The notes under the pieces were generated by a model. It was not told the origin of the DNA. It searched no databases and worked only from the letters and a program-made list of their open reading frames with translations. DNA of 43,026 bases from an uncultured euryarchaeote (GTDB lineage: Archaea; Thermoplasmatota; Poseidoniia; Poseidoniales; Poseidoniaceae): the NCBI GenBank assembly GCA_937899865.1, contig CALBRH010000062.1, positions 1 through 43,026 on the forward strand, in the 5' to 3' direction. How positions within the stretch are numbered: position 1 is the first letter of the stretch; every line of letters begins with the position of its first letter. The position numbers and the translations under genes were made by a program. This document shows positions 6,628-36,000 of this stretch, piece by piece.

Positions 6628-6645
6628 GTTTGATGGGTGAGATAT

Positions 6646-11996: not shown

Positions 11997-12018
11997 CGCC
12001 TCCCCTTTAGGGGAGGCG
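11997..12018. repeat. Perfect GC-rich inverted repeat upstream of the giant gene
   Basis: CGCCTCCCC-TTTA-GGGGAGGCG, 9-bp stem. Confidence 0.8.
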
Positions 12019-12041
12019 TTACGCTGTCGGTAAAATCGTCG

Positions 12042-15000
12042 ATGAAAATCAAAACTTCCCTGTTTATTGTTTTCCTGATGATTTCCATGACTTGGTCTGC
12101 AGGAATCAATGAAATAGTCTCAAAATACGAACCTATAGACCGACTTTCTGATGGTACTTCGTTTGAAGCAAATGCTGGCTGTGACACATTTACAAGAGTT
12201 GCAGGAACTCCGATTTATGTCGACCCAATCAATGGTTCAGCTACATGGTCCGGGACGGTTAACTGTCCAAAAAACAGTTTGAGTGAAGCGGTTTCAGCAG
12301 CCGTTGCAGGCGACGAAATTATTCTTCAATCTGGCAATTACCATGACAATGTAACAGTGGATAACTTAGACAATCTAATTATCCGTGCTGCGGATGGAGC
12401 AAATGTGGTATTTGACGGAACAAAAAGCATAACTGGTGATATGGCTGCAACTTGGGGTACTGCCGATGGGTCTGGAATTCAAACAGTTACTTTGAGTGAG
12501 CCAGGTTGGCAATTATTCTACAATTATGATGAGCAAGTGCCTGCTCGTTGGCCGAATGCCGCATTTAGTGATGGCTCGGTTTTTGACCGAGATAATAACT
12601 GGGCACACGGCACAATGTCGGCTAGATCTATCGATAATACCGACAATGATGGCAATGGTTTTCCTGACGTAGGATGTTTTGCCGGTGAAGAATTATATCT
12701 CGATGGTAGCACTTGGAAATGTGTTGATTACGGCAACGGCGTGATGGAAGATGATTCAACCTGTTGTGGCAATCACTCAGGTTTAGTTGCAGCTGGAATT
12801 AATCCAGTTGGGGCAATTGCCATTCTCAACGTTGCATCTTTCCGTTCATACAGCAGAACGGTCAACACATGGGATTCTATCACAGGCACATTCACTTATG
12901 ACACAGTGCCAAATTGGAAAATCAAAGAACACGCTTACATGCTTGAAGGCAAGCGAGAATTGATTGATGTTGATGGAGAATGGTGGTTTGATAATTCCAA
13001 TAACGAGTTACATTACAAAACACCATCTGGCCAAGATGCTAACAATCTAGATTTACGAGTCAAGACTCAGCCCTATGCAATTACCGTAACCAACTCGGAT
13101 GGAGTAACCATTCAAGGCATTGATTTCTTTGGCACCACAATCAATGTCAACAATTGCGATGGGTGCTCATTTACCAACTCGACACTCGAATATCCAAGTA
13201 CCTCAAAGCGTGGTTTGGGCATTGCAGGAGAAGATGTTGATGACAGGTGGGCAACACGATTTTATCGCAGCACAAACACCTTTGTTGACCAGATTTCAAT
13301 AGTTTATACCGATGGAACAGCTATTGAATTCCACGGTTCAGCTGGCCAATCAAATAATAATACAATCAATAATTCGTATTTCCACCACATAGACTGGTCG
13401 GTTACAGATTTACCAGGGTTGATGGTTTCAGTCTTTGAAGGCGGTAGAGATTTCACCTTCTCTAACAGCACAGTTAGCCTAACTGGTGCATCAGCAACCT
13501 TGTCTCTAGGTGATGCACCTCAAGTTTGGTACAATGAGGTTTGGGGCACTGGTTATCTACAAAGTGATGGAGCAGTTGTTCAGATGATGCAAGAAGAGCA
13601 GAGTGATGCTAACATCGCCTACAATTGGATTCATGATACTGACAAGTATGGAATTAGAATGGACGGCCCAATTGGCGGTTCAAACAACGGCCGCAATGCA
13701 ACGGTACACCACAACGTACTGTGGAATGTTAGCGGTGCGTTGATGGTTAAAGGCGACTACCATGAAGCAACCAACAATACTGTCTTTGGCAGCGATGGCG
13801 GTAAAAATCACATCATCGTGCTTTACGAAAATGGTGCAGGAAATGAGAACTCAGTTATTTGGAATAATGCAGCAGACTCTATTGCTGCACATCGGGCAAA
13901 TGACATTTGGAACAACCCTCTTCAAGACGATACCTTTGGTATGAATTGGAATGGCTATACAAATGGTTATGATGAATCAATACAAGCCCGTAATCAACAT
14001 TCTTGCGCAGTTTATGAAAACGGATCTTTGTACTGCTGGGGCAGAAATAACTACGGGCAACTCGGTTTGGGCCTTATATCCAATCAAGAATTAACACCCC
14101 AATTTGTTGATGTTGGTGCTGGAAAAACTATTGCCATGATGGAATCAAGCGGTTCAGGAAACCAAGCATCGGGAATATTGACTCACACCTGTGCCGTTCT
14201 CAACGACGGCCAATTATTGTGTTGGGGGAATAATGATGACGGCCAACTTGGCATTGGGAACACTACAGCCGGAGGCGTTTGGGTTCCTACAGCCGTAGAT
14301 TTGGGTTCAGGCCGCAAAGCGATAAGTATCGCACTTTCTAACGGGGCATCATGCGCTTTGTTAGACGACCAATCAGTAAAATGCTGGGGCAAAAATAACA
14401 AAGGACAACTTGGATTGGGCAATACATCCTCAAATGATGTTCTAACTCCACATCTAGTAACCTTTACCGGCACAAGTAAGCCAGTGAAACTTTTCGGTGC
14501 ATTAACAGCATTTTGCGCACTCATGGATAATGGTTCAGTGGCTTGCTGGGGAGGAAATAATGAAGGACAACTTGGACTAGGCGATTTGATCGACCGAAAT
14601 ACACCAACTTATCTAACATTGCCAGCGGATCGCCAAGTCACTTCCATGGATATTGGGAAAAATTTCATCTGCATGTCTTTCGATGACGGCACAGTGGGTT
14701 GTACGGGTGACAATAATATGGGTCAACTTGGAATTGGAAATTTACCTGATGAATTAACTTTGACTCTCACACAGGATTTAGGAGACTATGCTTTGTCAGT
14801 AGATACGTCACAGCATGGAGCATGTAGTTTGCTTGTTAATGGTAGTATGATTTGCTGGGGATATACAGTTGACGATGTATTCGGTGTTGGATATACTGGA
14901 ACTTTCACACAATCATCCGTTCCAAGTCTATTCCCACTTATTGATTCTGCAAGAAATGTTGCCACTGCTTCGGTAGGCTACACCCATACTTGTACTATTC

Positions 15001-18000
15001 TTGATGACCAATCAGTATCTTGTTGGGGCAATAACGTTCGAGGGCAATTAGGATTGGGCAATTTTTCTTCAGATTCAGTTCATGACCCTGATACACTTAC
15101 TAGCCTTGACCCGCTTCGTAAAGGTACAGTAGAGCAACAACTCGTTGATCCAGACAACCGAGATTTCAGGCCAAAGTGGGGCTCACAACTACACGTTCTT
15201 GGCGCTGGTGCTTATGACGCAGATGATTCAAGCACATGGGTGCCAGGAATAGACTGGACTTATGTGGCGTTATCAAGTCCAACTGTAGGTTGTACTCATG
15301 AAGGTGCGCTAAATTATGACAGTAGTGCAGAATTTGAAGACGGCTCATGTTACTACATTACTATCACGCCAAGTACGACCAGTGCGGAGTTATCGGCGAC
15401 AACTCCAATGACGCCAATCACTATCTCAGCAACAACATCCTATGTTACTAACACCTCTTCACAACCATTCTACCATGCAATTAATGATGTGCATCAAGAC
15501 GCTGATATAGCGATTGATAGTAATGGCAACTCGCACATTTGTTACAGAACAGCAGATAACGGTGGTAACTTATTCTACATGACCGATGTCACAGGTTCTT
15601 GGGCATGGGAGGGTGTACACGCTTCAAGTGCTAATCTCGGATTAGAATGTAGTATTGCCATTGATTCTAACGACGTCATACATATTGTTTATCATCAAGT
15701 GAATAACATGAATATCAAATATGCAACAAGGGCCATTTCTCCTGACGGCTCAATATCTGGAGATTCAACATGGACTAAATCTAATATTGTCACACTTCCT
15801 GAAGTAGGAAGTTATATTTCAATGGACATCGCTGAAGATGACACATTGTATATGTCTTATTTCCAAGGTCCGCCAGAAGGCCAAGATTTACTTTGGAGTA
15901 AGAAAGCCCCTGGTGGTTCATGGGTAAATAAAGGAGCAATTGACACATCAGGTAATACCGGCAGGTATAATTCGATTGTTTATGATGAACTAAATTCAGC
16001 AGTCCATGTATCTTACAAGCGAGGAGATACCAATAATTTGAGGCATGCAGTCAATGAAGGCTCAAATACATGGGTTAAGCAAAATGTCGACGTCTCCCAG
16101 TCAACTAACGGAGACACATCAATAGCTATCGATTCAAATGGCTATGTCCATATTGCATATTCCAATAATGGTGGCTCAAAGGTGCTTTACTCCACCAATG
16201 CTGCAGGATCAGGATTTGTCACAACTGTTGTAGATCAAGGTGCAGATGCTCACTCAGGTTTGTCGATGCGACTAGACAAAAATGACAAGGCGCATATTGC
16301 ATATTACAACGGCAATGGAGGCACATTGAACTATTCTTCAAATGCTCAAGGTCCATGGATAAGTCAAATTCTTGATGGGCAATCCTCAAATGTTGGAAAG
16401 GGAGTTGAATTGGAATTAGATACTAATGGAGATTTATTCCTCACATATCTCAACGATGATAATGATCAGAGAAAGGTAGGTAAATTCCGTAGCCTAGCCA
16501 ATACAGAAACCTATGAAATCCATCCAGACTTACCTTCTGGATTGTCGTTTGGCGCCAATAATGGAACTATTTGGGGAACTCCTACTGAAGGATTCGCTGC
16601 CATAGATTATACGATTTATGCCAACACAACTACTCAATCTGCAACAACATCAGTTCAACTTATGTCGATGTGGCAAGTTGAGCCAAGTGTTGCTGGCGTT
16701 GAGATAACACAAGACGACACCATTACTCCAATCACTTTCAATTGGACCGGTTGGTCATCGAGTGTGCAAAACAGTTCGAGTGCGGCATATACTGCTGGCC
16801 AATCTGGTTATTACAATAGCATAGTCACCGATACTAACAACAAAGTGCACATAGTTTCGTATCGTGCAGGCTCGAAGGAGGACCTAAGATATACCACCAA
16901 TGAATCTGGCTCGTGGGTTACCACAACCATTGATTCAGATATGCGAGTAGGCCAGTATTGTAGCATTGCGATTGATTCATCCGATGGTCTTCATGTGTCT
17001 TACCACAGAAATGAGGGCAATGACTTGAAGTATGCATACAAGGCTTCAGGTTCTAATTCTTGGTCAAAGGAGACCATAGATAGTAGCGGAGGGAGATATA
17101 CCTCAATTGCTATTGACTCTAATGATAACCCGCACATCTCATACCGCGAGAGTGGTGGACACTTAACCCATGCGACATGTTCGAATAATTGTTTGAGTGC
17201 TACATCTTGGTCATTCTCGCCAATTATCACAGGGGTTAACGTTGAGTGGAACTCAATTGCTATTGATTCAAGCGATCACATACATGTCGCCATGTACGAT
17301 GCCACTTCAGATTACTTGCATTATGCTACTGATACGTCAGGTTCATGGGTTGGTTCAAATCTAAAAAACATATCCAATGCAGGCGGAATGGCTTTGGATA
17401 TTGCGGTATCTCCAATTACTGATGAGCCAGGAATATCATATCTTAATGCTCACACTGATGATTTAGAATACAAAGTGTATGACGGTTCTTCTTGGTCTAC
17501 CGAAGTAGTTCACTCTTCAGGCAGTGTCGGAAGATATAATTCCCTTGCTTATGATTCTCAAGGTTCGGCACATATTTCATACGAAATGAATGGTGCTGCG
17601 TTTGATGATTTATGGTATGCTACCGATGCCACTGGTTCATGGCTCATAGAAGGAATATATGTTCATCCAACTGATAGAACCGGTTTGGATACCGCAATCA
17701 CAGTAGATGCTAACGACGATATACACATAGCACATCGTAACACTGTCAACAGTGGCAACCTTTACCATCAAACTGTTCAGGGTTATATTTCTGGTTCATC
17801 AACACGCTCAGCATTGTCTGGCGCAACGTGTACTTTCTCACCTTCTTTGCCAACTGGTCTTAACGTGGAAGACGGGACATGTACGATTTCAGGAGCACCG
17901 ACCATACCACAAGTCAACACTACTCATACTATTACTGCAACCTCATCTACCGGTTTGTCTTATACCGGACAGTTCTACCTAAATGTGCTTGCTCAAACCC

Positions 18001-21000
18001 CAGTAATCTCTTACTCCGGCTCTCCGTTCACCTATACCAAAGATGTAGCGATCTCTACACTTACTCCAACCAATACTGGCGGCGCTGCTACCTCTTGGAG
18101 CATCTCTCCAACCGAACCAACAGGTCTTACTTTTGATATTTCAACCGGAGAACTTACTGGAACACCTACTATTTTGCAAACCACTCCAGTAACTTATACA
18201 ATTTCTGCAACCAATACTGGGGGCACAGATTCAACAACAATTTCTATTTCAGTCGTTGATGCCTTACCGAGTATATCTTACTCAACAACTACTTTTGATT
18301 TGATTGTAGGTGAGGCAATGACTCCTATTACTCCGTCCAATAGCGGTGGTACAGCAACCTCTTGGAGTATTTCTCCTACTGAACCAGCCGGTCTTAATTT
18401 CGATACAGCAACAGGGGAATTATCTGGAACGCCAACCGTCGAGTCCGCATCTCAAGCGTATACTGTGACAGCGACAAATTCTGGTGGCACTGATACTGCA
18501 ACACTAACCATAGAGGTGCAAGTATTTGCCACACTAACCTCTAGTGTTGATGGAATATCAAATGTACCAAATTCAGCGATTACTCCAATTACTTTCACTC
18601 ATACAATTAACGGTGATACCAGTAGTCCGGCGTGGACTACGGGAGTTTCAGCCAGTTCTTCCCAAGTTATTGCCGGTTCATTTACTAAAGGAAATGATAT
18701 CGCTCAAGGTCCAAATGGTGCAATGGCTATTGTCGGTTATGAATCGATATCAAAAGATATGAAATTGGCATATTACTACGATGGTAGTTGGACTACATCT
18801 GTTATTCAAAATTCAGTAACCGATTTAAAGTATCCAAGTGTAGGAATTGATTCGAATGGCGTGGTGCATATCGTTTACTTAGATATGGCAAATGATGTTT
18901 TACGCTACGCTACAAATTATAGTGGCACTTGGCAAGTAATAGATCTCCATGCTACATTAGGTAATGATGATGATGTGGGTAAAGGATGGATTGCTGGTAC
19001 AGATCTAGCAGTAGATTCAATAGATAACTTGCATATTGTTTACTCTACTAAGAATTCAGCAAATACCATGTATACAATAAATTACACAACTAATCAAGGC
19101 GGTAGTTGGTCTTCTACTATGATTTCAGATGTAACTAAAAACGCCTTTGACCCGGCGATTGCTCTTGATTCAAATGACAAAGCACACGTTTCATATTTCC
19201 GAGAAACCGGTAACAATTTAGTTTATGCAACTAATGAAGGGGGCTCATGGACAAGAGAAGAAGTTGCAATAACCTTGAATCAAGGCAAATACTCATCAAT
19301 TACTGTAGATTATAATGATGTAGTTCATATTTCTTTTATCAAAGATGATGGTAATAATGACGTTAAATTAGCCTCAGGCAATTCAGGTTCATGGTCAGTT
19401 TCACAGATTCAAGGCAATCCAGGCACTGGCGGAACCGACGGCGCCTTTTATACAAGCATTGCAGCAGATTCTAACGGCGATTTGCACATTGTTTATGCTA
19501 AAGATAACTGGAACTACAACTACATTTTGGAATATATGACTAACTCCAGCGGTAGTTGGAATAAATTAACACTATCTTCTGACGGAGGAACATTCTGTTC
19601 AATTTCAATCGATTCAAATGATGACATCCACATTGTTCACGGTGATGTTGCAATAAATACAGAATTAGAGTATGCCACAGCCTCAGGTTCGGGTAAAGGA
19701 GTCAAGCAACATACTACCTGGCAAATTAGTCCAGCTTTGCCTGATGGATTACATATGAATTGGCGTAATGGTACAATTAGCGGCACCCCCACATCGATTT
19801 ACAGCAATACTACTCATACAGTTTATGCAAATATTAGTGGCAATTCTGTTTCCACTATCATTTACCTAGAGTTCCAAATAGAAGCTCCAGATATATCCTA
19901 TACTCAAAACGACCTCACTCTTACCAAAGGTACTGCAATGGGTGCCGTTTCGCCAACCAATAATGGTGGTGCAGCAGATTCGTGGGCGATAAGCCCATCA
20001 TTCTCTAATGGACTCAATTTCGATTCATCAACAGGAGAGATTACTGGTACTCCAAACACACTACAAACAAGAACAGAATATACAATCACGGCAACAAATT
20101 CTGGTGGTACGTCAACTGCTTATGTCAATATCACAATCAATGATGTAGTGCCCGCGATAAATTACAATCCAGACCAATTCGAGTTAACCAATGGCACTTC
20201 AAGTCTTTCTGCTTCACCGTCAAATTCAGGTGGGCCAGTCATCACTTGGTGGATTTCTCCTAGCCTATCTAATGGCCTAAACTTCGATAACTCAAATGGT
20301 GTGATTTCTGGTACACCAACCGAACTTCGCCCAACAACAATGTATACAATTACAGCAACAAATAGTGGTGGTTCATCAGTAGCTTATGTCAACATTACCG
20401 TGACAGACTCAGCCCCAAGCATTTCATATACGCCTAATGTATTTGATTTAACGATAAATGCTGCAATGTCACCAACAGCAACACCAAACAACATTGGCGG
20501 AGCAATACCAACACGTATTATTGACAATCCAACAACTCAACAACAAAATTCAATTGCCATCGACTCACAAGGTTATCGACACGTGGCCTATAAGAAAGCT
20601 AATGACTTATACTATGCAACAGACAAAACAGGTGTTTGGGTCGACACTCTTGTAGACACTACTCTAACAGTAGGTCACTTCGCTGATATTGCAATCGATT
20701 CCAATGATAATGTACATATTTCGTACTATGGTCAGTCAATTACTGGTTTGAAATATGCTACTGATGAAAGTGGCTCTTGGGTGGTAACAGTTATTGATGA
20801 TACTGCTGATGTTGGATTTGAAACTTCTATTGGCATTGATTCAAGTGATAAAATACATATTTCATATTATGATGAAACCAGTGAAGATCTAAAATATGCA
20901 TCCTGTTCAAGCACTTGTTCATCTGCATCTTCGTGGGTCCTTTCAACATTATACGCAACGGGAGACACTGGAAAACAATCAGAATTAATGATAGATTCTT

Positions 21001-24000
21001 CAGATAACATTCACATTGCCTTTTACGATCGTGGAATTGAAGGTCTAATGTACGCTACTGACCAATCAGGAGCGTGGGTAATCACTGTGGTCGACAATAC
21101 AGGGGGAGCATCTGGTACAACTGGAGGCCAACCATCAATTGCTATGGATTCTACTGGTACAATTCACATTGTTCATCGTGATGTAGATGCTTTGGGAATA
21201 AGGCATTCCACCTGCTCCAGTACTTGTTCTTCTTCTAGTTCGTGGAGTAACTCGGCTCTCGAATCTGCTGGAAATGTCGGTCAGCAATCATCAATGGTAA
21301 TTGATTCACAGGACCATTTGCACGTTACTTACTATGATAATGGTAATTCAGCCCTTCGCTATGCCACAAATACCTCAGGTTCATGGGTATTTACTAATTT
21401 AGACACTGAGGGAAGTGTTGGACTTTTCTCTAGCATTGCACTTGACACCGATGATAATATTCATATTTTATATTCTGATTTGACCACTCCAGCACTAAAA
21501 ATCGCGACTCTTTCAGATGACGGAATGTTTGGTTACTCAATTAGCCCAGACTTGCCTAGCGGACTTAGTATTGATGCAGTAACTGGAGAGATTTCTGGAA
21601 CTCCAACTGTACTTTCTGCCTCTACAGTTTACACAATTACGGCGATAAATAGTGGCGGAACAACCACGACAACAATTACTCTTGCAGTAAATGATGTACC
21701 TCCTTCGATTAGTTATCCATTCCCTTCGTATATTTTTACCAAAGGCCAAATGATCTCCACAATTCATGCCACCGCTACGGGCGGCGAAGCAACAAGTTGG
21801 GAAGCGAGTGATTTACCCGCTGGCTTGTCAATAGATGCAGTTGACGGATATATTTGGGGAACGCCTACTAGTATTACCCCTACTACAACTTATACGATTT
21901 GGGCTAATAATTCAGGCGGTTCCGCTTCGACAACCATAACGATGACAGTAAACGATGTCGTACCAGGCACATTCTCTTACAGTCCAGTTGATATGGATTT
22001 GACCCTCAACCAAGCCATGACACCTAACACCGTATCGCCGGGCGGCGGCGCAGTCACAAGTTGGGAAATTGAACCAGACGTACCAAATGGCCTCAACTTT
22101 GGCTCTAACAACGGCACAATATGGGGCACACCAATGGTCTTACAAATCTCACCAATTACCTACACGATCTGGGCAAACAACACCGGCGGCTCATCCTCAA
22201 CAACTGTGACAATAACCATTATCGATGCTGCTCCTGGGCCATTCGAATACATCCCTGAGAACAACACCATCACCAACAACTCACTGGTTCACCTCGCACC
22301 ATATTTCATCGACGCCACATCAGGTAATGGTTCAACCTGGCAGGTTGCTACGCAAAACAATCCAGGTGTGAATTTCGAACTGGTCGTGAATGACATCATA
22401 TACTTCGATGCCAACCAAAACAAGCGTCTTTACGCCTTCAATCCAGTAAATAACACGGTTTGGCAAGTCAACAGTTCACTTACCGGTGTCGGCCAATATA
22501 TGGCCTATGCAATTGATGACGTGCTCTACTTTTCCGCTTTCGGGGCAGGTCTTGGGAACGAATTTTGGGCATACAACACCACGAACAATACGGCATGGCA
22601 AGTGGCCGATATCAATCCAGGGACCGGTTCAAGTAACTCCGGCAATTGGTTAAATGAGCTGAGTGGGGAGTTGATTTTCTTCCGAGCAAACACAGGTTCT
22701 GCATGGAAATTACATGTTTTCAATGCCAGTAATCAAACCGTCTGGGAAGTTTCACATTCTTTCTCCCAACAATTCGGATACTCAGGATCCTCAAAACTTC
22801 TGAGCAAAGCCATTGGTGACACGCTGTATTTTGCTGCCAAGGATTCATCTTCACCACATTATGAACCGTTTGCGTACACCGTATCCAACAACACCGTTTG
22901 GATGATTGCTGACATCTACTCTGGATCCGCATCCTACGGGACAGAAGCAGGACATAATCTGGCAGGCGTCGTGAACGACATCCTCCTGTTTGATGCCTGG
23001 GATGGCAGTGGTGGAGCCCGAACACTCTGGGCTCATGACCCGTCCAACGGCACCACATGGGAAATATCTTCTTCGGACTCAACTCGAAGTGACGGATTTA
23101 TTTCGGCAAATAATTGTGGTCATGATGGCAATAACAGATTGCGTGTCTTCGTGTATGGAGATACTGGTTATTTCTGCGCTGGTGGTTCAGGCGACGGCGA
23201 TGAACTCTGGGCATACAACACCTCAAACACCACGGCGTGGTTAGTCGCTGACATTAATCCGGCTGGAGACAGCAATCCTGGACGATACATGTTCGAGAGG
23301 ATTGGCGACACGCTGTATTTCTCCGCAACAAATGGAAGCACTCAAGGCACTGGACTCTGGGCTCACGACACGTCCAATTCTTCCACATGGCTTGTTGCAG
23401 AATTGGTATCACCAGGCCAAAGGTCGTCCTTGGTGGTTGGAGACACCGTCTATTTCAGTGCTGATGGAGGTTCGGGCACTGAGCCATGGGCGTATGACAC
23501 CTCAAACCAATCTACTTACCTTCTGAAGGACATCTATACTGGGAATTTTATGCACTGCGGTGGCTTCTGCTCCAGTAATCCAGGACTTCACCTCGATTTC
23601 ACCCTTGTTGGTGACGTCATCTATTTCGATGCAAGCGATGGTACTAGCCTCAGTCTATGGGGTCATCGACCTTCAGTCATCAATTATCAGACAAATACGG
23701 GTGGGGATGTTACTTCATGGGCAATCAATGCCAGCCTACCAAACGGTCTAAACTTTGATAGTAATACAGGTGTAATTTCTGGTACGCCGACTCAATTGAT
23801 TTCCCAAACCGCTTACAAAGTATGGGCTAATAATTCTGGAGGTTCAAGCGTTGGCTATTTCAATCTAACAGTTATCGATGATGCCCCAGGCACATTCTCT
23901 TACAGTCCAGTTGATATGGATTTGACACTCAATCAAGCCATGACTCCTAACATTGTCTCTCCAGGTGGCGGTGCAGTTACAAGCTGGGAAATTGAACCGG

Positions 24001-27000
24001 ATGTACCAACTGGCCTCAACTTTGGCTCTAGCAACGGAACCATTTGGGGCACTCCAACGGTTCTGCAAACCTCTCCAATTACTTACACAATTTGGGCTAA
24101 CAACTCTGGCGGCTCTTCCTCAACAACTGTTACCATTACCATCAATGACGAAATCCCGTCATTCTATTACTCTCCAGATGAATTTACTTTCACTAAAGGC
24201 GTTACTATTTCGTCAACCATACTACCAACAAACACAGGTGGAACACCTACTTCTTACACAATTTCACCAAATTTGTTCAATATTTTCCACTTCAATATCG
24301 TTAGCGGAATGATTGGAGGAACCCCAAGTACAACACTAACTAGGACACAGTTTACTATCACGGCAACAAATTCCGGCGGTTCATCTGTTGCATACATCAA
24401 TGTAACAATCAATGATGCTCCACCAGGCACATTTTCTTACAGTCCAGTAGATATGGATTTGACACTCAATCAAGCGATGACACCTAACACCGTATCGCCA
24501 GGCGGTGGCGCAGTAACAAGCTGGGAAATTGAACCAGATGTTCCAAATGGCCTCAACTTTGGTTCTAGCAATGGTACAATTTGGGGAACTCCAACGGTTC
24601 TGCAAACTTCACCAATCAGTTACACCATTTGGGCAAACAACTCAGGCGGCTCCGCCTCGACAACTGTAACAATTACCATTATTGATATTGCAGCATCAAT
24701 TTCTTATTCATTGGATGAAATCGTTGCAACACTTGGCGTTCCAATCAGTCCACATTCCAATCCAACTAATACCGGTGGAGCAGTCGTTACGTGGGAAATT
24801 TCGCCAGACCCAGGCCCTCATTTCCACTTTAATTCAGCAAATGGAGTCATTAGTGGAACTCCGGGCGCGCTTTTGACTAGGTCTCAATACACCATATACG
24901 CTAATAACTCCGGAGGTACGTCGATCGCTTATGTCAATGTTACAATCAATGATGCCGCTCCTAGTTTTTACTATGGAGTAATAGATGATGGTTCACAGCA
25001 CTTCGTAAGATTCGCTGTGAATGCTACAATCAGTCCGGTGATCCCCAATCATAGGGCCGGTGGCGGTATGCCAACGTCGTGTACTACTTCGCCATCCCTT
25101 CCAACAGGGTTGTCGATCAGTTCAAGTTGCGTTATTACTGGAACACCAACCGTTTTGAGTTCCTTTGCTTGGTACACTGTTAGTGCCTCAAATTCCGGTG
25201 GCACGACTTCTTTTCCGACCATAAATAAATTGTACATAGGCGTGTTTGCTGACGGCGGTACACTGACCGTCACACCAACTGCAACCGAAGGCAGCGTGAA
25301 CAGTTCTATTTCAGACATCACGATGTCCTATACGCATCAAACCAGCAACTATGGCTGGTCATCTGGAGTAACCAATGGCTCGTCTTTCTTGACTACCGAT
25401 TTCCAAAATGGTGGTGGTTCACATTGGCTCGGTATTGATTCGGGTGAGCAAGGTGAAATGGCTGTAGTCTATGCTCACAACGATACTGGAGCAACAACTC
25501 ATAGCCTTGGATTAATGTACCGCTGGAATGGAGTTTGGACTGAATACTTGCTTGATAGTGATACTGACACAGGACAACATCCATCGGTTGCTATCGACCG
25601 TCAAGGCGCCTTACATATCGCCTATATTGATACTCATAATGATAAATTACGTTACGCAACTAATGCTACAGGAACTTGGGCTTTTACTACACTGGGTGAT
25701 GCGATCCACAATAGTGTTGGGAGAGGTACTGCTATTGTTGTGCACCCAATAACGGATTCTGTCCATATTGTTACTACCAATTATGCTAATAGTAACCACC
25801 ACCTTCAATATCACACCAATGAGGATGGAACGTGGTTTAACGAGACAATAACCGATACAACGAAAGATGAAGGTTACTACCCTTCAATGGTAGTAGATGG
25901 CGATGGCAATCTTTACGTGGCACACCATTGTGATTCTGGCTGTCAAGATTTACGATTGTCGAGCCGAATCAACGGCGTGTGGCAAATTGAGACCGTCGCT
26001 GGTGTTGCAAATCTATACGGCATGAGTGCCGTAGATTACGATATTGGTAATACCGCTGAAATGACGATAGATTCTCAGGGAACCCTGCACATAGTTTCAC
26101 AATCATCAACCAAGAGAATTTACCTACACAGCGGAACTCCCGGAAGTTGGTTTGAGGACCGCAACGCAACTACTGAATGTTGTGGGCACTGGCCAGCAGT
26201 TGCCGTAGATTCCAATGACGCAGTTCATATCGCTTATCACATCGGTTCGAATAAAAATCTGAAGTATCTAACCAATGCATCTGGTTCATGGAGTTCACCG
26301 AAAGTGATTGACGGTTATGGTGGCTGGGGTAGCGTGATGGAAGTTGACGCTAATGATGATATATTTATTGTAAACAATGCACCAAATAACAACGCAATCA
26401 AGCTGACAACTGTCAAGGGTTCAGGACAAGGTTTGACGGCTATACCCATGTTCGATATCTCACCGCCACTGCCTGATGGCCTAACCATGAACTGGAGAAC
26501 CGGAACTATTTCTGGTACTCCAACCGAAGTACATGTCAATACAACTCACACAGTTACTGTGACTGCGCTTGGATTGACAACTACCGCTACTTTCACACTC
26601 TATATCTCCGGCGCTCCAGGAAGCATTGCCTACGCAGATATTATCGGCACCCATCACTCTCCAATTACTCCACAAGTTCCAACATTCACCAACACATCTA
26701 CTAGTGGGGATATTACCTCTTGGGAAAGTGATCCAATGTTGCCAACCGGTTTGAACATCGGGTCTGCTAATGGAACTATTTGGGGAACTCCAAGTGTAAT
26801 AATTGCTGGTGGAGTCTATGTGATTTGGGCAAACAACTCAGTCGGCTCTTCTTCCACTACAGTAAATATCACCATCAATGCGCAAGTACCGGGTTCTTTC
26901 ACATACAATCCAATAGATATGGATTTAACACTCAACCAAGCCATGACTCCTAACACCGTATCGCCAGGCGGTGGCGCAGTAACAAGCTGGGAAATTGAAC

Positions 27001-30000
27001 CAGATGTTCCAACCGGCCTCAACTTTGGTTCTAGCAACGGAACCATTTGGGGCACACCAACTGTTTTGCAAACCTCACCAATTACTTACACTATTTGGGC
27101 TAACAACTCTGGTGGTTCATCCTCAACAACAGTTACCATCACCATCAATGATGAGATACCAACATTATCCTACCCAAGTAGTCCTTACACTATTGTTCGT
27201 GGTTATGACATGACTGATATTACTCCAGTAGTGGGCGGAGGAACAGTCCTAACGTGGGAAATTTCCCCATCCTTGCCAAACGGGCTATCGTTCACTAATG
27301 GCGTAATCAGCGGCAAACCATTTGCTAACCGATCAACTCAAACATACACAGTTTACGCTAACAACTCTGGTGGCTCTGCCTCTGCAACTTTTGACCTAAC
27401 AATCAATGAGCCAACACCGAATATTGATTACAACCCAGATAATTACACACTAAGCAATAATACAGCAATCCGTATTGATCCAATTCTCCAAGCAAATCCA
27501 CCAAGCGCAGTTGCAGCAATTACCTATTCAGGAACTGCAGCATCGAACGCGTGTTTGATTCAGATGGGTGATTTAATCTTCTACCAAGGTACTGACTCTA
27601 CGCACGGTAGGGAATTGTGGGCCTTCAATCACACTCTCCCTGTTTCAGTCAACAATCCATATATGGTCAAAGATGTATATTCTGGCGCTAATGATGGCAT
27701 ATCAGGAGACTGTGAAGACATGCTGGTAGTCAACAATACTCTATTCTTTAGAGGCAATGATGGTTCAAATGGTGTTGAATTGTGGAAGAGTGACGGGACC
27801 TCTTCTGGTACGGTTATGGTAAAAGACCTCAATTCGGGTTCGGGTTCCTCGAATCCTAGTGACTTTACTTCGGCTAATGACAAACTCTTCTTTACGACCG
27901 GTCTTGGTTCATATCAATTCCGTAGGTGGGTTTCAGATGGAACAAATGCGGGAACTTATGATGTAGGTTCCTGGACATCAAATTTCAACGCCATCTTCTA
28001 TCCTGAAATAGAGTATAACGGCTCAATTTATGGTCAAGGCTGGGATGGTCATAGAGTGCTCTTCTCACTAAATGAAACGACATATGAAAGGGTAGCAGAC
28101 CTCGGAGGAGGGCATAATAACCCGCGTGCCTTGACTATTTACGATGGTTGGCTGTATTTCCTAACCTATGACACAGCAGCAGGAACAGGTTGCTTGTACC
28201 GAACTAATGGAACTGAAGCCGGAACTTCGATGTTTATCTGTGGTACTCCACAACATCACCCTATGGGTGCTAATGGAATGAATGAGTTTGAAATGCAGGT
28301 ATTTAATGATGAATTATATTTCATAAGAGATTCAGGTTCAGGTCATGGCGATGAGTTATGGAAGACTGATGGTACACAAAGTGGTACCGTGATGGTGAAA
28401 GATATTGTCCCTGGCACGTCATCAGGTTTCTGTAGTAATCCTTTAAGCAGTTGTCAAGGAGGATCTAGATTATACGCTACTGAGAATTATTTGTTGTTTG
28501 ATGTAGATTCAGATGGTGATGGCCAACTTGAGTTATGGAAGACTGATGGTACTTCTGGTGGCACATCATTGTTAAAAGAAATCTTTTTACCAGGGGCAAA
28601 TGAAATTTATTATCATCAAGTTGATGAAATAATATACTTCAGAGCCAGCCAACATAGTTCATATCAAGATTCAGAGTTATGGAGTACTGATGGTACGCCC
28701 GCAGGTACTGTAAGAGTGGAAGATATATGGGAGGGCTCATCTGGTTCAGCTCCAAGAGACATCATAGATGTTGATGGAACACTATATTTCATAGCTTACA
28801 ATGGTTCGAGTTATTCACTATTCAATGTCAATAATGCTGGGAACGGCATCATAGGCGCACCAACCACATGGTCAATTTCACCACCAACTCTACCAAGCGG
28901 TCTAACTTTCAATAATGGCGTAATCAGTGGAACGCCAACAGTTCTGCAACTAACACCAATAATGTATACAATCACTGCAAGTAATGCTAATGGTTCATCC
29001 TCAACCACGATTAATCTAACAATAATTGATGCAGCACCAGGCACGTTTGCTTACAATCCAGTGGATATGGATTTGACACTCAATCAGGCTATGACGCCTA
29101 ACACCGTATCGCCAAGTGGCGGAGCAGTCACAAGTTGGGAAATCAGCCCAGATTTACCGGCTGGCCTAAACTTTGAATCCAGCAACGGAACCATATGGGG
29201 AACTCCAACTATCTTGCAAATCGATCCAGTTATGTACACTATTTGGGCTAATAATTCAGGCGGCTCAGTTGAAGTTAATGTTAATATTACCATCAACGAT
29301 GAGGCGCCAGATATCGAGTATAATCCTGACTGGTTTGTTGTGGATAAGGGTGTTTGGTTGCCTGGAGGACAACTGAACCCTCCACTTTCGGCAATACCGA
29401 CCAACTCGGGAGGAGATATTCCTGCAGAATATATTCACACTAGTAGTATGAGTCCGACGCCGGGCCAGTACAACTCAATCGCTATTGACTCAAATGGCTT
29501 CAGGCACGTTGCCTACTACTCGGGTTATACTACTGGTTATACTTTGACGTATGCTACAGATATGAGCGGTACTTGGACTAGGGAGGTTGTTGATAGCTCA
29601 GCACTTTACATTGGACAGCACACATCAATTGCCATTGACTCAAATGATAAAGTGCACATTTCCTACTTTGATGATACCAATACTGACTTGAAGTATGCAA
29701 CCAATGCTGGTGGCGCTTGGGCTACTGTTTCAGTTGACACTTCCTCAGTAGGCAAGTACACTTCAATCGCGGTTGATTCTAATGATGTTGTGCACATCTC
29801 ATACTATGACACATCTTTTAGAGATCTGAAGTACGCTACATGTTCAGCAGTCTGCTCACAAGCGTCTTCTTGGACTACACTTACAATTGACAGTACAGGC
29901 ATAGTTGGTCATACCTCCTCTATTGCGATTGATTCAAGCGATACAATTCACATATCATATCGAGCCTCTCAATTAGGAAACATCAAGTATGCTACTTGTT

Positions 30001-33000
30001 CGTCATCTTGTTCAACTGTATCTTCTTGGACCACGACTACGATTGATAACTCAGGCGAGGCTACTGACCCATCAATTGTAGTTGACTCGAATGATGATGT
30101 TCATATTGCTTACAGGATATACAATTCCTCTACTAGTTACCTCATGCACACAACTTGTTCCTTATCATGCTCATCTGCGGCTTCTTGGACATCAACTGTC
30201 GTTACCTCCGCAACTGGCTATTATAGCTACATATCAATCGCCGTTGATTCTAATGATGGCGTACACATCTCTCATGCGAAACAGAAAACAGGCATCTACA
30301 GTGGTAGAAGCCTAGATTATGCAACTTGTTCTTCATCCTGCTCATCAACATCTTCTTGGACCAATATTATTGTTGATGATCCACCTAGTGGCGTAACATA
30401 CACTTCAATTGCAGTTGATTCAAATGATAGGGTACACATCGTTTACCACCAATCTGGAGTAGGTCACGGGCTAAGGCATATCACACTTGATGCTTCTTCA
30501 GATGTATATGGTTATACGATTAGCCCAGACTTGCCGGCAGGTTTGAAGTTCGACGTATTTACGGGCGAAATTTCAGGAACCGCATTAGAGATTTCGGCTA
30601 ATACAACCTATACGATTACTGCCAGAAATTCAGGTGGCTTTGATACAACGACCGTCACTATCGAAGTCGTAGACCAACTTCCAACTGTTGCTTATTCGCC
30701 AGATGATTTACAATTGACTAACAATACAGCAAGCGGTGATTTACCACTTACACCAAGCTTAACTGGCTTTGGAGCAATCACATCTTGGGAATTGAACAAC
30801 ACTAACTTGCCATCAGGAATCTTGTTCGCCTCCAATAATGGAACATTCTATGGAACGCCTACTGAACTGTGGCCAACTACTGCTTACAAGGTTTGGGCAA
30901 ACAATACCGGTGGCTCAACAGTCGCTTATCTCAATATTACAGTAGTTGATCAATTACCAACTGATATTACTTACCCAGTAATCAATCTCAACCTAACCAA
31001 TAACACTGCAAGTCCAGACTTGCCACTTACTCCGCAAATCACTGGACCAGGAGATATACTAACTTGGGAAATCAGTGATGACTTGCCGCAAGGTTTGACC
31101 TTTGACAGCAATACTGGTGAGATATCTGGTATTCCAACAGAGTTATGGCCAACCACCAATTATACTGTATGGGCAAATAATACTGGTGGCGCAGTGGAGA
31201 TTGAATTCAATATCACTGTCGTTGATGAGATTCCAACGCTAGCTTATTCACCAGATGATCTTGATTTGACTAATAACACTGCAAGCCCAGACTTGCCATT
31301 ACAGCCACAACTAACCGGTCCTGGTGAGATACTCACTTGGGAATTGAACAATACTAACTTGCCAGCAGGAATCTTGTTTGGCTCCAATAATGGAACATTC
31401 TATGGAACACCAACTGAACTGTGGCCAACAACCGCATACAAGGTTTGGGCAAACAATACCGGTGGTTCAGTAGCCGCTTATCTCAACATCACAGTTGTTG
31501 ATCAGGTTCCTACCGATTTCACTTACAGCCCAGATGATTTACAATTGACTAACAATACAGTAAGTGTTGACTTGCCACTTGCTCCACAACTAACCGGCCC
31601 TGGAGAGATACTCACTTGGGAATTAAACAACACTAACTTGCCAGCAGGAATCTTGTTTGGTTCTAACAATGGAACATTCTACGGCACACCTACTGAACTA
31701 TGGCCAACTACCGCCTACAAGGTTTGGGCGAACAATACTGGTGGAACAGTTGAAGCTTATCTCAATATTACAGTCGTTGATGAAGTTCCATCGCTTTCGT
31801 ACTTGCCAGAGAACTTGACGCTGACCAAGAACCAGGCAAGCAATGACTTACCGCTGACTCCAACTCTCACTGGCTCGGGAGCCATCACTTCATGGGCCAT
31901 CAGTCCAGCACTGCCAAGTGGTTTGACATTCGGTACAAGCAACGGAACCATTTGGGGTATTGCAACAGTCTTGCAAACTAGTCCAGTGACATACACAGTT
32001 TGGGCCAACAACAGTGGTGGTTCGGACAACACCAGCATCAACATCACCATCATCGACCAGGCGCCGGACATCTCCTATTCACCAGATGAGCTCAATTTGA
32101 CAAAATACCAATCCAGCAGCGATTTACCACTAAGTCCAACCAATACTGGAGGAAACACACAAACCACCGCATTGTGCAGTTCAAGCGGCACCCCCAACCT
32201 CTTCGTGGTGAGCGATCACGAAGGTACGCGCCATGTATTGTGTGGCACCACTCTCTACAGCACCGATCTCGGAGGTACACAGACCGTGTCGAACAATATT
32301 GTGACAGGAATAGCCTTTGGTCTGGAAATCGATGACGATGGCCATCTCCACATCGGCCACACGATAAACAACTATCCGTATGTTTACATTCATCACGCAA
32401 CGAACAAAAACGGTTCATGGCAATCAAGCAATGTCTTCAACTTCAGCTATGGTGGCGGGGTAAGTTATTCCATGCAAGGATTCAGTATGGCCGTTGGCAG
32501 TGACGACAGCATTCACTTCACGTACATCCGCACCACGGGCGGAGGGAACACCCCGAATCTCTATCATCTCAGTAATCAAAGTGGTTCATGGTCCAGTGTA
32601 TTGTTAACAAACCAAAACAAACCAGCTGAACCATCGCTTACTCTCAACAATGACAATGTACCACACGTTGCATTCAATGTTGGAAACTCTTTCAGTATTG
32701 GAAAATATGAGAGTGGCTCGTACACCACTCTCCTCTCCCGCTCGAATTACTTGGAGCCGGAGATCGCAATCGACGCTCAGGGAGATGTGCACGTGGTGTA
32801 TACAAAGAGCACAATTGGCCTTTATTATTCAACCAACGCTTCAGGTTCGTGGCAACATACCACACTTGAAACAACAGAAAGGCATTTTGATGTCAGGATT
32901 GCTTTGGATAACAACGATTATCCGCATGTGATGAGCGCTTCCATCACAGGGCAATTTAACAGTTACAGACATGTCAATTATTACAGCCATGATGGAAGTT

Positions 33001-36000
33001 CTTGGAGCGGTGGCAGCATTACTCCAGCAATGTCGAGTGTTCATGAACCGAGGCCGGACATCTTCATCGATGATAACGACGTGATTTCAATGGTCCATCA
33101 CGACCAAAACAACGGCAATCTGTTCACAAGAGCAGGTTCGACAACCTACGGCTACAGTATTTCTCCAGCCCTACCGAGTGGCCTCACCTTCTCACAATCC
33201 ACCGGTACCATTTCTGGAGTATCCACTGTCCAAATGAACAGAACCATGTTCACCATTACCGCTAACAACAGCGGCGGTTCAAGCACGGCCTACATCAACA
33301 TCACTGTCAATGATCGTATGCCTTCGTTCACTTACAACCCAGAAAACCTCACCCTGACCAACAACACGGTCAGCAGTGATCTACCGCTTGCACCAACCTT
33401 CCACTATTCAGGAGACGTTCCAACAAATTGGGTCTTGATTGGAACATTACCCGCAGGTCTCAACTTTGGCACCAACAACGGAACCATTTGGGGTACGCCA
33501 ACCGAGCTATGGACGACCACAAATTATACCGTATACGGGAACAACACTGGTGGTTCGTTCAACGTAAGCATAAACATCACGGTAGATGATCAAGTGCCGA
33601 TGATTTCCTATTCCCCAGATGCACTAAATCTAACCAATAATACGGTTAGTACTGACTTACCACTCGCCCCAACAGTAACTGGATATGGTACTATCATTTC
33701 TTGGGAATTGAACAATACCAACTTGCCATCAGGAATCTTGTTTGGAAGTAATAATGGTACGTTCTACGGAACACCGACTGAACTTTGGCCAACTACTGCC
33801 TACAAGGTTTGGGCCAACAATAGCGGTGGTTCAGTAGCGGCTTATCTCAACATCACAGTCGTTGATGAGCTTCCAACCTCGATCAACTATCCAGTAATAA
33901 ATCTGAATTTGACTAACAATACGGCAAGTCCAGACTTACCAATGAGTCCACAAATTACCGGCCCAGGCACAATCATCTCATGGGAAATTAGTGATGAATT
34001 GCCAGAAGGATTGACCTTTGACAATAATACCGGTGAGATTTCTGGTATTCCAACCGAGTTGTGGCCAACTACCAATTACACGATTTGGGCCAACAATACC
34101 GGCGGTTCAGTCGAGATCGAGTTCAATATTACCGTAGTAGATCAGTTGCCTGGTACCTTCACCTACAATCCGTCTGACCTGCTATTGACCAATAATACCG
34201 CAAGCACAGACCTACCATTACTGCCACAATTAACCGGGCCGGGTGAAATTACTTCTTGGTCGATAAATGAGACACTGCCACTTGGTCTAAACTTTGGTAA
34301 CAATAATGGTACCGTTTGGGGAATTCCAACCGAATTACAGTTGACGCCTAAACCATTCAACATAACAGCGACAAATTCTGGTGGCTCAATTTACGCAATC
34401 ATCAACATCACAATCCTCGAAGTTGTACCGACTCTGGAATATAATCCAGATGATTACAACTTCACTCGAAATGTCACAATCAGTGATATTGTCCCAACTT
34501 ATACTCCACTTGACCTAATTGATAGTTGGGAAATAAGTCCTGGTGTACCGCTTGGTTTGACCTTTGACAATGGTACAATTAGCGGAACACCGACAGTAAA
34601 TATGACAAGAACAGAATTTACCGTATGGGCTAATAATTCAGGTGGTAGTGCTTCAGCTAAATTCAACATCACAATAGTTGAGCCAACCGGTTCTTTCGCT
34701 TACGTTCCTGCTTACTACAACTTTACTCGCGGACTTGGAATCTCATCAATATCACCAAATTACATTGGTGGCGCAATCGAGAACTGGAGTGTCTATCCAG
34801 ACCTACCGGCTGGTCTAATATTCGAGAATGGAACGATTAGTGGAACTCCAACGGTTAACTCGACCGAAGTCAATTACACCGTCTTTGCCAACAATAGCGG
34901 TGGTTCAGTAACCGCCTTCATCAGTATCACAATCAACGAGCCGGTAGCATCAATTCACTACGCGCCAGATGAGCGCAATGAAACTCGAACCATCAGTATG
35001 ACACCTTGGTTCCCACAGGTAACCGGTGGCGAAGTCGAAACTTGGGAAATATACCCTGATCTGCCAACGGGATTGAGCTTCATTGATGGAGTGATTTCCG
35101 GTGTTGCGACTGTCAACTCAACTAGAACCAACTATACTGTATGGGCTAACAACAGTGGCGGTTCTGCATCAACCAACATTTACCTAACTGTGGTTGAGCC
35201 AGTGGTCGAATTAGCATACAATAATTACGAATTAATCTTGGTGAGAAATGTCACAATGGCTCCACTAATGCCTCAATTAAGCGGTGGAGAAGTTGAAACT
35301 TGGGAGATTTCCCCGGAGTTGCCAGATGGCATCAATTTCACTGATGGTATGATTTGGGGTACTCCGACCGTTAATTCTACTAGAATCATGTATACTGTAT
35401 GGGCTAACAATACAGGTGGCTCAACTAATGTCAGTCTAAACATAACCATTCTTGAGCCAAGTGCTAACATCGTCTACGATCCAAATAACCTGGTTTTGAC
35501 CAGAGGTGAAACAATGGATCCTGCCGTACCAGAGGCCGATGGTGGTGCAATAGAGACATGGGCAATTAGCCCAGATTTACCAGATGGATTGGTATTTGAT
35601 AATGGTACAATTTCCGGTACACCAACAATTAACATGACCACTCAAAACTATCTGATTTATGCTAACAATAGCGGTGGTTCATCATTCACTGCTATCAGTA
35701 TTACAATTTTGGAGCCAGCACCGACAATAACCTACCAGACTGATTCGCTAATCCTAACCAGAGGCGAGGCCATGCCATCCGCTCTACAGGCAATCTTTGG
35801 TGGCGGAGCAGTAGCATCATTCACTGTTGATCCAGAATTACCTGATGGCCTCAACTTCACCAATGGTACAATCTTCGGTACGCCAACAGTTAACTCAACG
35901 TTGGTACAATACAATATCAGTGCAATCAATAATGGTGGTAGTGATTACTTCTTGCTCAACATCACTATCCTTGAGCCGGTTGCAATCTTGAGTGCTGATG

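What the first reader, a model, noticed from the sequence alone, without database searches (positions are those of the whole stretch)
15435..33150. Plug-in architecture: nine beta-propeller cassettes inserted into the same loop of a host Ig domain
Seen: an intact repeat reads PxISY...L...AMxPxxPTNxGG | xxWxISPxLPxGL...ISGTPT...ANNSGG. In nine of the 42 repeats a ~330-465 aa propeller-repeat block sits between the first half and the [WYF]xISPxLPxGL half. Approximate inserts: 15435-16508, 16749-17825, 18606-19715, 20511-21530, 22311-23711, 25338-26447, 27492-28862, 29424-30509, 32154-33149. Insert types differ (SIAIDSxxxxHI blades; ELWAYNTSN blades; ELWxxDGT blades). Established: propellers have adjacent termini, so they tolerate insertion into loops. 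Inference: the protein is a continuous Ig filament with a standard socket that displays lateral binding heads like a bottlebrush, rather than a simple domain string, and the heads may be exchangeable. I do not know of a description of this arrangement, but I cannot search.
Basis: partly seen in the sequence, partly recalled or inferred. Interest (0 to 1): 0.88.

Follow-up and report, generated by a model that had tools for sequence, protein, structure and literature searches.

The report
Archaeal giant adhesin with plug-in propellers
A marine archaeon (Poseidoniales) encodes an 8,337-residue membrane-anchored surface fibre in which nine of its 42 small Ig-like stalk domains are each split open by a whole beta-propeller; bacterial adhesins use the same design, but relatives here carry the same sockets empty, filled or filled with a different propeller.

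Summary
One ORF (window 11964-36977, +) encodes an 8,337-aa protein with a signal peptide, a beta-helix/RCC1 head, 42 He_PIG Ig-like repeats and a C-terminal TM anchor.

- **Repeats:** 33 are intact. Nine are interrupted by 324-459-aa propellers, seven of the 'SIAIDS' type and two of the ELWxxDGT type.
- **Position:** after every propeller the Ig profile restarts at position 23-34 of 88. That is the loop between strands B and C, but not one fixed residue.
- **Not chance:** across 180 related proteins the gap between the two Ig halves is <=20 aa in 1,066 cases and 250-600 aa in 36, with almost nothing in between.
- **Structure:** AlphaFold2 models insert 4 with both halves at high confidence and the strand pattern of an intact domain.
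- **Empty socket:** for the ELW-A socket (insert 5) two relatives have the same domain uninterrupted.
- **Strength of evidence:** five of nine N-halves are clearly Ig-like by sequence, three weakly, one not. AF2 did not dock the N-half of insert 5.
- **Variation:** relatives differ in socket occupancy and in propeller family (SIAIDS, ELW, RCC1, FG-GAP, NHL).

The design is not undescribed. 'Split domains' that project ligand-binding domains are established in bacterial RTX adhesins. This scan also reported the same module in another Poseidoniales genome (e1-2625061). I class it as a new variant of a known kind. Binding function and lateral geometry are inferred, not shown.

The parts
11964..36977 (+). 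Giant ORF, 8,337 aa. The likely true start is the ATG at 12042, followed by a signal peptide.
12042..15350 (+). Distal head: signal peptide and a beta-helix-like region, with an RCC1 propeller (about 13941-15122) that appears to be inserted in it.
   Evidence: Pfam RCC1 / WD40_RLD. The beta-helix reading comes from sequence motifs only.
15351..16673 (+). Split unit 1: N-half 15351-15434, SIAIDS propeller 15435-16499 (355 aa), C-half 16500-16673.
   Evidence: The N-half is not recognisable by profile.
16674..17996 (+). Split unit 2: N-half 16674-16754, SIAIDS propeller 16755-17825, Cys-pair C-half 17826-17996.
   Evidence: The N-half is weak.
18525..19883 (+). Split unit 3: N-half 18525-18605, SIAIDS propeller 18606-19691, C-half 19692-19883.
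   Evidence: The N-half is weak.
20409..21701 (+). Split unit 4 (canonical): N-half 20409-20510, seven-bladed SIAIDS propeller 20511-21509 (333 aa), C-half 21510-21701.
   Evidence: HMM N-half 2-38 and C-half 27-88. AF2 pLDDT 88.7. Fold matches.
22227..23888 (+). Split unit 5 (ELW-A): N-half 22227-22313, ELW-type propeller 22314-23690 (459 aa, about 9 repeats), C-half 23691-23888 starting at TNTGG.
   Evidence: TIGR04534 96 bits. Empty-socket counterpart P0027:3823-3915. AF2 leaves the N-half undocked.
25242..26612 (+). Split unit 6: N-half 25242-25337, SIAIDS propeller 25338-26411, C-half 26412-26612.
   Evidence: The N-half shows no Ig signal by sequence.
27411..29030 (+). Split unit 7: N-half 27411-27491, ELWxxDGT propeller 27492-28841 (450 aa), C-half 28842-29030.
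   Evidence: TIGR04534 239 bits. The N-half profile hits 168 intact N-halves in register.
29301..30674 (+). Split unit 8 (canonical, with a short extra loop in the N-half): N-half 29301-29423, SIAIDS propeller 29424-30503, C-half 30504-30674.
   Evidence: (47% identical to unit 4)
32058..33314 (+). Split unit 9 (canonical): N-half 32058-32153, divergent SIAIDS propeller 32154-33125 (324 aa), C-half 33126-33314.
   Evidence: HMM N-half 2-39 and C-half 26-88
33315..36773 (+). Proximal stalk of 13 uninterrupted He_PIG repeats.
   Evidence: He_PIG 224 bits, 11 stretches
36852..36914 (+). C-terminal transmembrane anchor, followed by a short charged tail.
   Evidence: sequence

Best explanation
This is a type-I membrane-anchored surface fibre of a Poseidoniales (Marine Group II) archaeon. 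It has an N-terminal signal peptide and a C-terminal TM helix.

Its stalk is a chain of He_PIG Ig-like domains. Nine of them act as 'split domains'. The chain makes strands A, A' and B, leaves through the B-C loop to fold a complete beta-propeller whose ends lie next to each other, then returns to finish strands C to G and continue the stalk. Each propeller therefore branches off the fibre without interrupting it.

Together with the beta-helix/RCC1 head, the propellers most likely act as multiple, different binding heads for glycans or other surface polymers on particles or phytoplankton. That part is inferred.

The socket is a conserved, reusable insertion site. Across relatives it is found empty, filled, or filled with a propeller of another family. 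The set of heads is therefore reshuffled over evolutionary time, probably by recombination within these repeat-rich genes. That mechanism is also inferred.
For: **Anatomy.** There are 33 intact and 9 split repeats, and every post-insert match restarts at HMM position 23-34. The spacing between the two halves is bimodal across 180 proteins.

**Co-folding of the halves.**
- The AF2 model of P0001:2729-3331 has pLDDT 88.7 and pTM 0.73.
- The N-half strands (92-94, 98-102, 113-115) and C-half strands (462-466 to 504-515) repeat the pattern of the flanking intact domains, at offsets of +89 and +429.
- Both halves have pLDDT 86-95, and seven four-stranded blades lie between them.
- In the model where the N-half is undocked, the C-half drops to pLDDT 51-74.
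- An ESM Atlas model from a Thermoplasmatota He_PIG cluster aligns over 410 residues, spanning model residues 16-513.

**Empty socket.** P0027:3823-3915 and its P0026 counterpart are intact He_PIG domains (34.8 bits). Their N-half matches the ELW-A N-half profile at E 3e-14. Compared with the occupied sockets in P0020, P0021 and P0016, the N-half is 15-23 of 28 identical (22-23 for P0020 and P0021), the C-half 46-48 of 61 and the preceding domain 52-56 of 69. The occupied sockets carry an insert of 453-474 aa.

**N-halves in register with intact domains.** The canonical profile gives 642 hits, the insert-7 type 168 and ELW-A 16. Splicing the N-half onto the C-half raises the profile-profile score by +53, +31 and +14 respectively.

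**Variation between relatives.**
- Homologous giants carry 4-9 inserts in different orders.
- Socket 2 holds an FG-GAP propeller in P0020 and a SIAIDS propeller in P0014, with flanks 41-46% identical.
- A same-genus relative, G012 (head 94% identical over the query), is collinear through insert 2. After that it carries a different SIAIDS propeller (35% identical) and an RCC1 propeller between scaffold repeats that are 87-94% identical.

**Context.**
- The neighbouring genes form an archaeal ribosomal-protein/Spt5 cluster.
- Two hits carry NCBI names, one 'Candidatus Poseidoniales archaeon' and one 'Euryarchaeota archaeon'.
- MGII archaea are reported to be particle-associated and to carry adhesion-domain proteins (PMC4511931, PMC6461757).
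- The SIAIDS propeller is seven-bladed. Its nearest solved folds are the CylK propeller (Z 34), Photorhabdus PLL/PHL fucose lectins (Z 30-32; Foldseek E 1e-15, TM 0.74-0.78) and Vgb lyase (Z 29.5).
Against: - AF2 did not dock the N-half of the ELW-A unit (pLDDT 31-43, no strands).
- The N-halves of inserts 1, 2, 3 and 6 give weak or no Ig signal. Insert-2-like N-halves give one in-register hit at E 0.005 and a +7 splice gain. Insert-6-like N-halves give none.
- No model coordinates or PAE were available. Contacts between the halves and the direction in which the heads project were not measured directly.
- The nearest solved folds include enzymes as well as lectins, at 11-16% identity, so a binding role is not established.
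- The gene comes from a metagenome-assembled genome (65 contigs, 91% complete). Long-range repeat order could in principle be misassembled. Against that, the repeats differ at many synonymous sites.
Confidence: 0.8

Rival explanations
1. This would be a plain beads-on-a-string arrangement for some or all units. The propeller is a tandem domain. The 27-40 residues before it are a linker or a strand that closes the propeller. The Ig after it is a truncated or divergent domain that folds by itself.
For: The N-halves of inserts 1, 2, 3 and 6 are barely or not detectable as Ig. AF2 left the ELW-A N-half disordered. Pfam aligns the post-insert domain of inserts 2 and 7 from profile position 12-14, so some strand-B-like sequence may lie after those propellers.
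Against: - The canonical unit models with both halves confident.
- An empty-socket counterpart exists for ELW-A.
- All nine post-insert matches lack the first 22-33 HMM positions, whereas intact repeats start at position 2-3.
- The pre-insert segments have a constant length and are conserved among orthologues.
- An intact He_PIG domain in P0122 has an N-half like that of inserts 1-3.
Confidence: 0.12
2. The architecture is real, but the propellers are catalytic modules (glycoside hydrolase, lyase or sialidase-like). On this reading the protein is a cell-bound multi-enzyme fibre rather than an adhesin.
For: The fold neighbours include Vgb lyase, rhamnose-glucuronate lyase, ulvan lyase, GH and putative neuraminidase propellers (Z 26-29.5) and the alkylating enzyme CylK (Z 34). 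There is a weak BNR_4 match for insert 3. The head resembles pectate-lyase-type beta-helices, from sequence motifs only.
Against: There is no significant match to any enzyme family in Pfam or NCBIfam. The lectins PLL/PHL are the best Foldseek hits. No catalytic residues were identified. The seven SIAIDS propellers share only 27-47% identity, which fits diversified binding surfaces.
Confidence: 0.15
3. The mosaic is an assembly artefact. Near-identical Ig repeats would have caused pieces of several genes to be joined into one chimeric ORF.
For: The source is a MAG of 65 contigs. GC3 differs strongly between cassettes, from 0.26 to 0.53.
Against: - The frame is uninterrupted for 25 kb.
- The most similar repeats are only 83-87% identical in DNA, and the longest exact run is 64 nt.
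- The same split units occur in dozens of independent assemblies, including contigs of 0.5-1.5 Mb.
Confidence: 0.04

Closest known systems
Ig-like 'split domains' that project ligand-binding domains in bacterial RTX adhesins (AhLap, FrhA, MpIBP; PMC12077191, PMC10865825, bioRxiv 10.1101/2025.09.30.679566; Graham et al. 2024, Proteins 92:933)
   Same: Both are giant fibres of Ig-like extender domains. A whole domain with adjacent termini buds out of an interrupted beta-sandwich, which is then completed. A single protein can carry several different heads (up to six CBMs are reported). Isoforms differ in their set of heads.
   Different: - This one is archaeal and has no RTX beta-roll or T1SS signal. 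It has a signal peptide and a C-terminal TM anchor, so its polarity is reversed.
- The host domain is He_PIG, not BIg.
- The insertion lies after three strands (B-C loop). In RTX adhesins it lies after the first strand or before the last two.
- The inserts are 7- to about 9-bladed beta-propellers rather than CBM, vWFA or PBD domains.
- Nine sockets are spread along two thirds of the stalk instead of clustering at the tip.
- Empty and occupied versions of one socket are documented.
Integrin beta-subunit hybrid domain with the inserted beta-I domain (named from my own knowledge, not tested here)
   Same: An Ig-like sandwich is interrupted by a complete ligand-binding domain.
   Different: It is eukaryotic, has a single insertion of a vWA-type domain, and shows no repeated socket and no exchange of inserts.
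Photorhabdus PLL/PHL seven-bladed fucose-binding lectins (PDB 5C9L, 5MXE, 8Q82)
   Same: They share the seven-bladed propeller fold of the SIAIDS cassette (VIA Z 30-32, rmsd about 2.5 A over about 305 residues; Foldseek TM 0.74-0.78).
   Different: Identity is 11-16%. They are free-standing soluble proteins. Sugar-site residues were not compared. CylK and Vgb lyase score similarly.
TIGR04534 ELWxxDGT repeat proteins
   Same: Inserts 5 and 7 score 96 and 239 bits, above the 65-bit cut-off.
   Different: Here the repeat propeller is nested in an Ig domain. No close solved structure exists (best Foldseek TM is 0.46 or lower).

Membership tests
He_PIG putative Ig domain (PF05345) | Profile match above the gathering score (24 bits) | tested here: met
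   Intact repeats score 67 bits over 2 repeats and 224 bits over 11 stretches, covering profile positions 4-95. The nine post-insert pieces score 28-43 bits.
He_PIG putative Ig domain (PF05345) | A contiguous domain covering the whole profile | tested here: not met
   In the nine split repeats the match starts at profile position 30-42 (12-14 in two of them). Pfam does not match the N-halves. This is what defines them as split.
Split domain plus projecting domain (the architecture described for RTX adhesins) | A beta-sandwich interrupted by a whole domain and then completed by the returning chain | tested here: met
   Shown by the AF2 model for unit 4 and by the empty-socket counterpart for unit 5. 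Sequence supports it in register for units 7, 8 and 9. It remains inconclusive for units 1, 2, 3 and 6.
RTX adhesin family | [quoted passage not shown] | tested here: not met
   No GGxGxD motif occurs anywhere in the protein. The C-terminus is a TM helix with a charged tail. No RTX family appears in the Pfam scans.
RTX adhesin family | [quoted passage not shown] | tested here: not met
   Here three strands (A, A', B) precede the insert and five follow it. The RTX rule is taken from bioRxiv 10.1101/2025.09.30.679566.
RTX adhesin family | N-terminal retention module held in the outer membrane | not tested
   The organism is an archaeon. The N-terminus is a signal peptide followed by a beta-helix-like head. 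No retention-module model was available.
TIGR04534 ELWxxDGT repeat | Profile score of at least 65 bits | tested here: met
   Insert 5 scores 96.4 bits and insert 7 scores 238.6 bits.
PLL/PHL propeller lectins | Seven-bladed propeller with conserved inter-blade sugar sites | tested here: inconclusive
   The fold matches (Z 30-32), but identity is 11-16%, the site residues were not compared, and enzymes score as well.

The most novel reading that the evidence does not exclude
The He_PIG socket of Poseidoniales giants may be a natural, general-purpose domain-insertion site. On this reading at least five unrelated propeller families (SIAIDS, ELWxxDGT, RCC1, FG-GAP, NHL) are gained, lost and swapped by recombination. 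Each species, or even each strain, would then display a different combination of binding heads on one fibre. That would make this a cassette-exchange system for surface recognition in the most abundant planktonic archaea, and a ready-made scaffold for protein engineering.
Probability: 0.4. Interest if true: 0.75.

Novelty: new variant of a known kind. Interest (0 to 1): 0.6.

Why it matters
Marine Group II archaea are abundant and uncultured, and how they attach to particles or algae is unknown. This protein suggests how they could do it: a very long fibre that carries many different propeller heads.

It also extends the 'split domain' design from Gram-negative RTX adhesins to archaea. The host fold, the insertion point and the class of insert are all different here, which argues for convergent evolution of the design.

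Empty and occupied versions of the same socket give a rare natural before-and-after example of domain insertion. Sockets that accept five propeller families would also interest people who engineer domain-insertion scaffolds.

Tried and rejected
- **Co-folding of separated halves.** I ran complex prediction on the two separated halves of unit 6. It returned no verdict (score 0.02), which is not evidence either way.
- **Pre-insert segments alone.** hhalign of these segments against the Ig N-half was too short to decide.
- **Showing the split sandwich by fold search.** I hoped to show this from model 1. Foldseek and VIA lists are filled by propeller matches, and no model coordinates or PAE are returned, so half-to-half contacts could not be read directly.
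- **Full-length unit search.** phmmer with the whole unit fragments the alignment and found only 5 full-length units. I replaced it with separate N-half and C-half profiles.
- **Literature.** A search for 'propeller inserted' or 'nested domain' returned nothing relevant. A search on Poseidoniales giant proteins also gave nothing specific. Graham et al. 2024 (Proteins) is not held in the library.
- **Assembly artefact.** Considered and rejected (see rivals).
- **ELW propeller fold.** No close solved fold was found, only generic 8- to 10-bladed propellers with TM 0.46 or lower.


Full report
**What is there.** The window holds one very long open frame, 11964-36977 on the + strand, encoding 8,337 aa. 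The likely start is the ATG at 12042, which is followed by a hydrophobic signal sequence. The protein ends in a hydrophobic helix and a charged tail, so it reads as a type-I membrane-anchored surface protein. Upstream genes are an archaeal Spt5 / L1 / L10(P0) cluster (I did not scan the L11 and L12 ORFs). Two relatives carry NCBI names, one 'Candidatus Poseidoniales archaeon' and one 'Euryarchaeota archaeon'. The genome is a 2.0-Mb MAG, 91% complete.

**Checking the observation.** I built an 88-position HMM from 30 intact repeats.
- It maps 33 intact repeats and nine gaps of 315-487 aa between its matches.
- After every gap the match restarts at position 23-34 instead of 2-3.
- Before four gaps a separate N-terminal match is seen.
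- Pfam He_PIG behaves the same way. Intact repeats cover profile positions 4-95. After seven of the nine inserts the pieces cover only 30-42 to 96, and after inserts 2 and 7 they start at 12-14.

Inserts 5 and 7 are ELWxxDGT repeat propellers (TIGR04534, 96 and 239 bits). The other seven consist of 'SIAIDS..H[IV]' blades that match no Pfam family.

**Is it more than chance?** I made separate N-half and C-half profiles and scanned 180 related proteins. The distance from an N-half to the next C-half is <=20 aa in 1,066 cases, 251-600 aa in 36 cases, 101-250 aa in one case and 21-100 aa in none. This is the signature of a discrete domain insertion at a fixed site.

The site is the same loop but not one residue. 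ELW-A propellers sit just before the TNTGG motif. SIAIDS propellers sit just after the TNxGG motif.

**Do the halves form one domain?**
- *Canonical unit 4.* I modelled it with one intact Ig on each side (P0001:2729-3331, 22-row alignment). AF2 gives pLDDT 88.7 and pTM 0.73. The pre-insert segment has three strands at pLDDT 86-94 and the post-insert piece has five. Both repeat the strand pattern of the two intact domains exactly, at offsets of +89 and +429. Seven four-stranded blades lie between them. I could not obtain coordinates, so the contact itself is inferred. The supports are the strand pattern, the confidence values, a pTM too high for the propeller alone (my own rough estimate), and an ESM Atlas model that aligns over 410 residues spanning the unit.
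- *ELW-A unit 5.* AF2 left the N-half disordered (pLDDT 31-43) and the C-half only moderately confident (51-74). Comparative data settle this unit instead. In P0026 and P0027 the same domain is uninterrupted and runs straight from '...IAPSFVNG' into 'TNTGG...'. It is a normal He_PIG domain. It sits at the same place in the protein as the occupied sockets of P0016, P0020 and P0021. The N-half is 15-23 of 28 identical (22-23 for P0020 and P0021), the C-half 46-48 of 61 and the preceding domain 52-56 of 69. The occupied sockets carry an insert of 453-474 aa.
- *The other units.* N-half profiles of the canonical type and the insert-7 type hit hundreds of intact N-halves in register. Splicing N-half and C-half together raises the profile-profile score against intact repeats by +53, +31 and +14 for the canonical, insert-7 and ELW-A types respectively. 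The gain is only +7 for insert-2-like units and 0 for insert-6-like units.

Overall, units 4, 5, 7, 8 and 9 are well supported. Units 1-3 are weakly supported, by an intact P0122 domain with a similar N-half. Unit 6 rests only on its truncated C-half and its conserved, correctly sized pre-insert segment. A complex-prediction run on the separated halves of unit 6 gave no verdict.

Fourteen homologous giants share the head and a partly conserved backbone, but they carry 4-9 inserts in different orders.
- Socket 2 holds a SIAIDS propeller in P0014 and an FG-GAP propeller in P0020, with flanks 41-46% identical and unrelated inserts.
- The Cys-pair socket subtype hosts SIAIDS, RCC1 and FG-GAP propellers, and it also exists as an intact domain.
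- NHL propellers occupy sockets in more distant proteins.
- A same-genus genome, G012, has a head 94% identical over the query. It is collinear through insert 2 and then differs. It carries a SIAIDS propeller only 35% identical to insert 4 and an RCC1 propeller, set between scaffold repeats that are 87-94% identical to ours.

So the scaffold is conserved while occupancy and cassette identity vary. Whether each difference is a gain, a loss or a swap cannot be told without rooted trees.

**What the heads are.** The SIAIDS cassette is a seven-bladed propeller. Its nearest solved folds are the propeller of CylK (Z 34), the Photorhabdus PLL/PHL fucose lectins (Z 30-32; best Foldseek E-values), Vgb lyase and several polysaccharide lyases and hydrolases. 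All are at 11-16% identity, so the fold does not fix the function. The ELW propeller has about nine repeats and no close solved relative. MGII archaea are reported to be particle-associated and to carry adhesion-domain proteins (PMC4511931, PMC6461757). Multivalent binding is therefore the most economical reading, but it is inference.

**Comparison with what is known.** In Gram-negative RTX adhesins, ligand-binding domains 'project out of companion split domains', usually Ig-like extenders, and up to six such heads occur in one protein (PMC12077191; bioRxiv 10.1101/2025.09.30.679566). The present protein works like that but is not a member of that family.
- It has no RTX repeats or T1SS signal.
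- It is archaeal and anchored at the C-terminus.
- The host fold is He_PIG.
- The insertion lies after three strands rather than after one or before the last two.
- All inserts are propellers.
- Nine sockets are spread along the distal two thirds of the stalk.

This scan has already reported the same module (three copies) in another Poseidoniales genome (e1-2625061), and I reach the same reading independently. The additions here are:
- the scale (nine sockets, two propeller families in one protein and five across relatives);
- the two exact insertion positions within the loop;
- the empty-versus-occupied orthologous socket;
- the within-genus difference in cassettes.

**Verdict.** This is a new variant of a known kind, of moderate to good interest.

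Noticed in passing
window 13941-15122: An RCC1 propeller (Pfam RCC1 / WD40_RLD, about aa 660-1000) sits between beta-helix-like rungs and a motif typical of the C-terminal end of such helices. The head therefore also seems to carry a nested propeller, which would be a tenth.
   Followed up: partly
window 21966-22226, 23889-24149, 24426-24686, 26892-27152, 29040-29300: Five 'family-A' Ig repeats bracket cassettes 5, 7 and 8. The first four are 89-94% identical in protein but only 83-87% in DNA, and the fifth copy is 77-79% and 75-78% identical to them. About 30% of the identical residues use different codons, and the longest exact run is 64 nt. This indicates strong purifying selection on the protein and argues against assembly collapse. 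G012 has a 94% identical copy.
   Followed up: yes
window 15435-33125: Third-position GC differs widely between cassettes within one ORF, from 0.26 (insert 4) to 0.48 (insert 5) and 0.53 (insert 9). The Ig scaffold lies between 0.30 and 0.45. This is compatible with a mosaic origin.
   Followed up: partly
own genome contigs C37:1-3941 and C25:about 101000-105100: A second, contig-truncated gene (open frame 1,275 aa) carries a canonical split Ig with a SIAIDS propeller. A third gene (3,276 aa) carries He_PIG repeats.
   Followed up: no
window 37815-40349: The gene downstream of the giant encodes an 844-aa membrane protein with a C-type lectin domain (Pfam Lectin_C, 33.8 bits).
   Followed up: no
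window 6637-7560: The Spt5 (NGN + KOW) homologue is 307 aa and has about 135 extra N-terminal residues.
   Followed up: no
P0001, whole protein: There are 196 N-x-S/T sequons, against about 152 expected from composition. Many lie in the conserved 'NNT', 'NIT' and 'NNSGG' positions of the repeats, which suggests heavy N-glycosylation of the fibre.
   Followed up: no
P0082:1562-1922, P0112:619-976, P0108:26-440: NHL-type propellers are nested in the same He_PIG socket in more distant metagenomic proteins.
   Followed up: no
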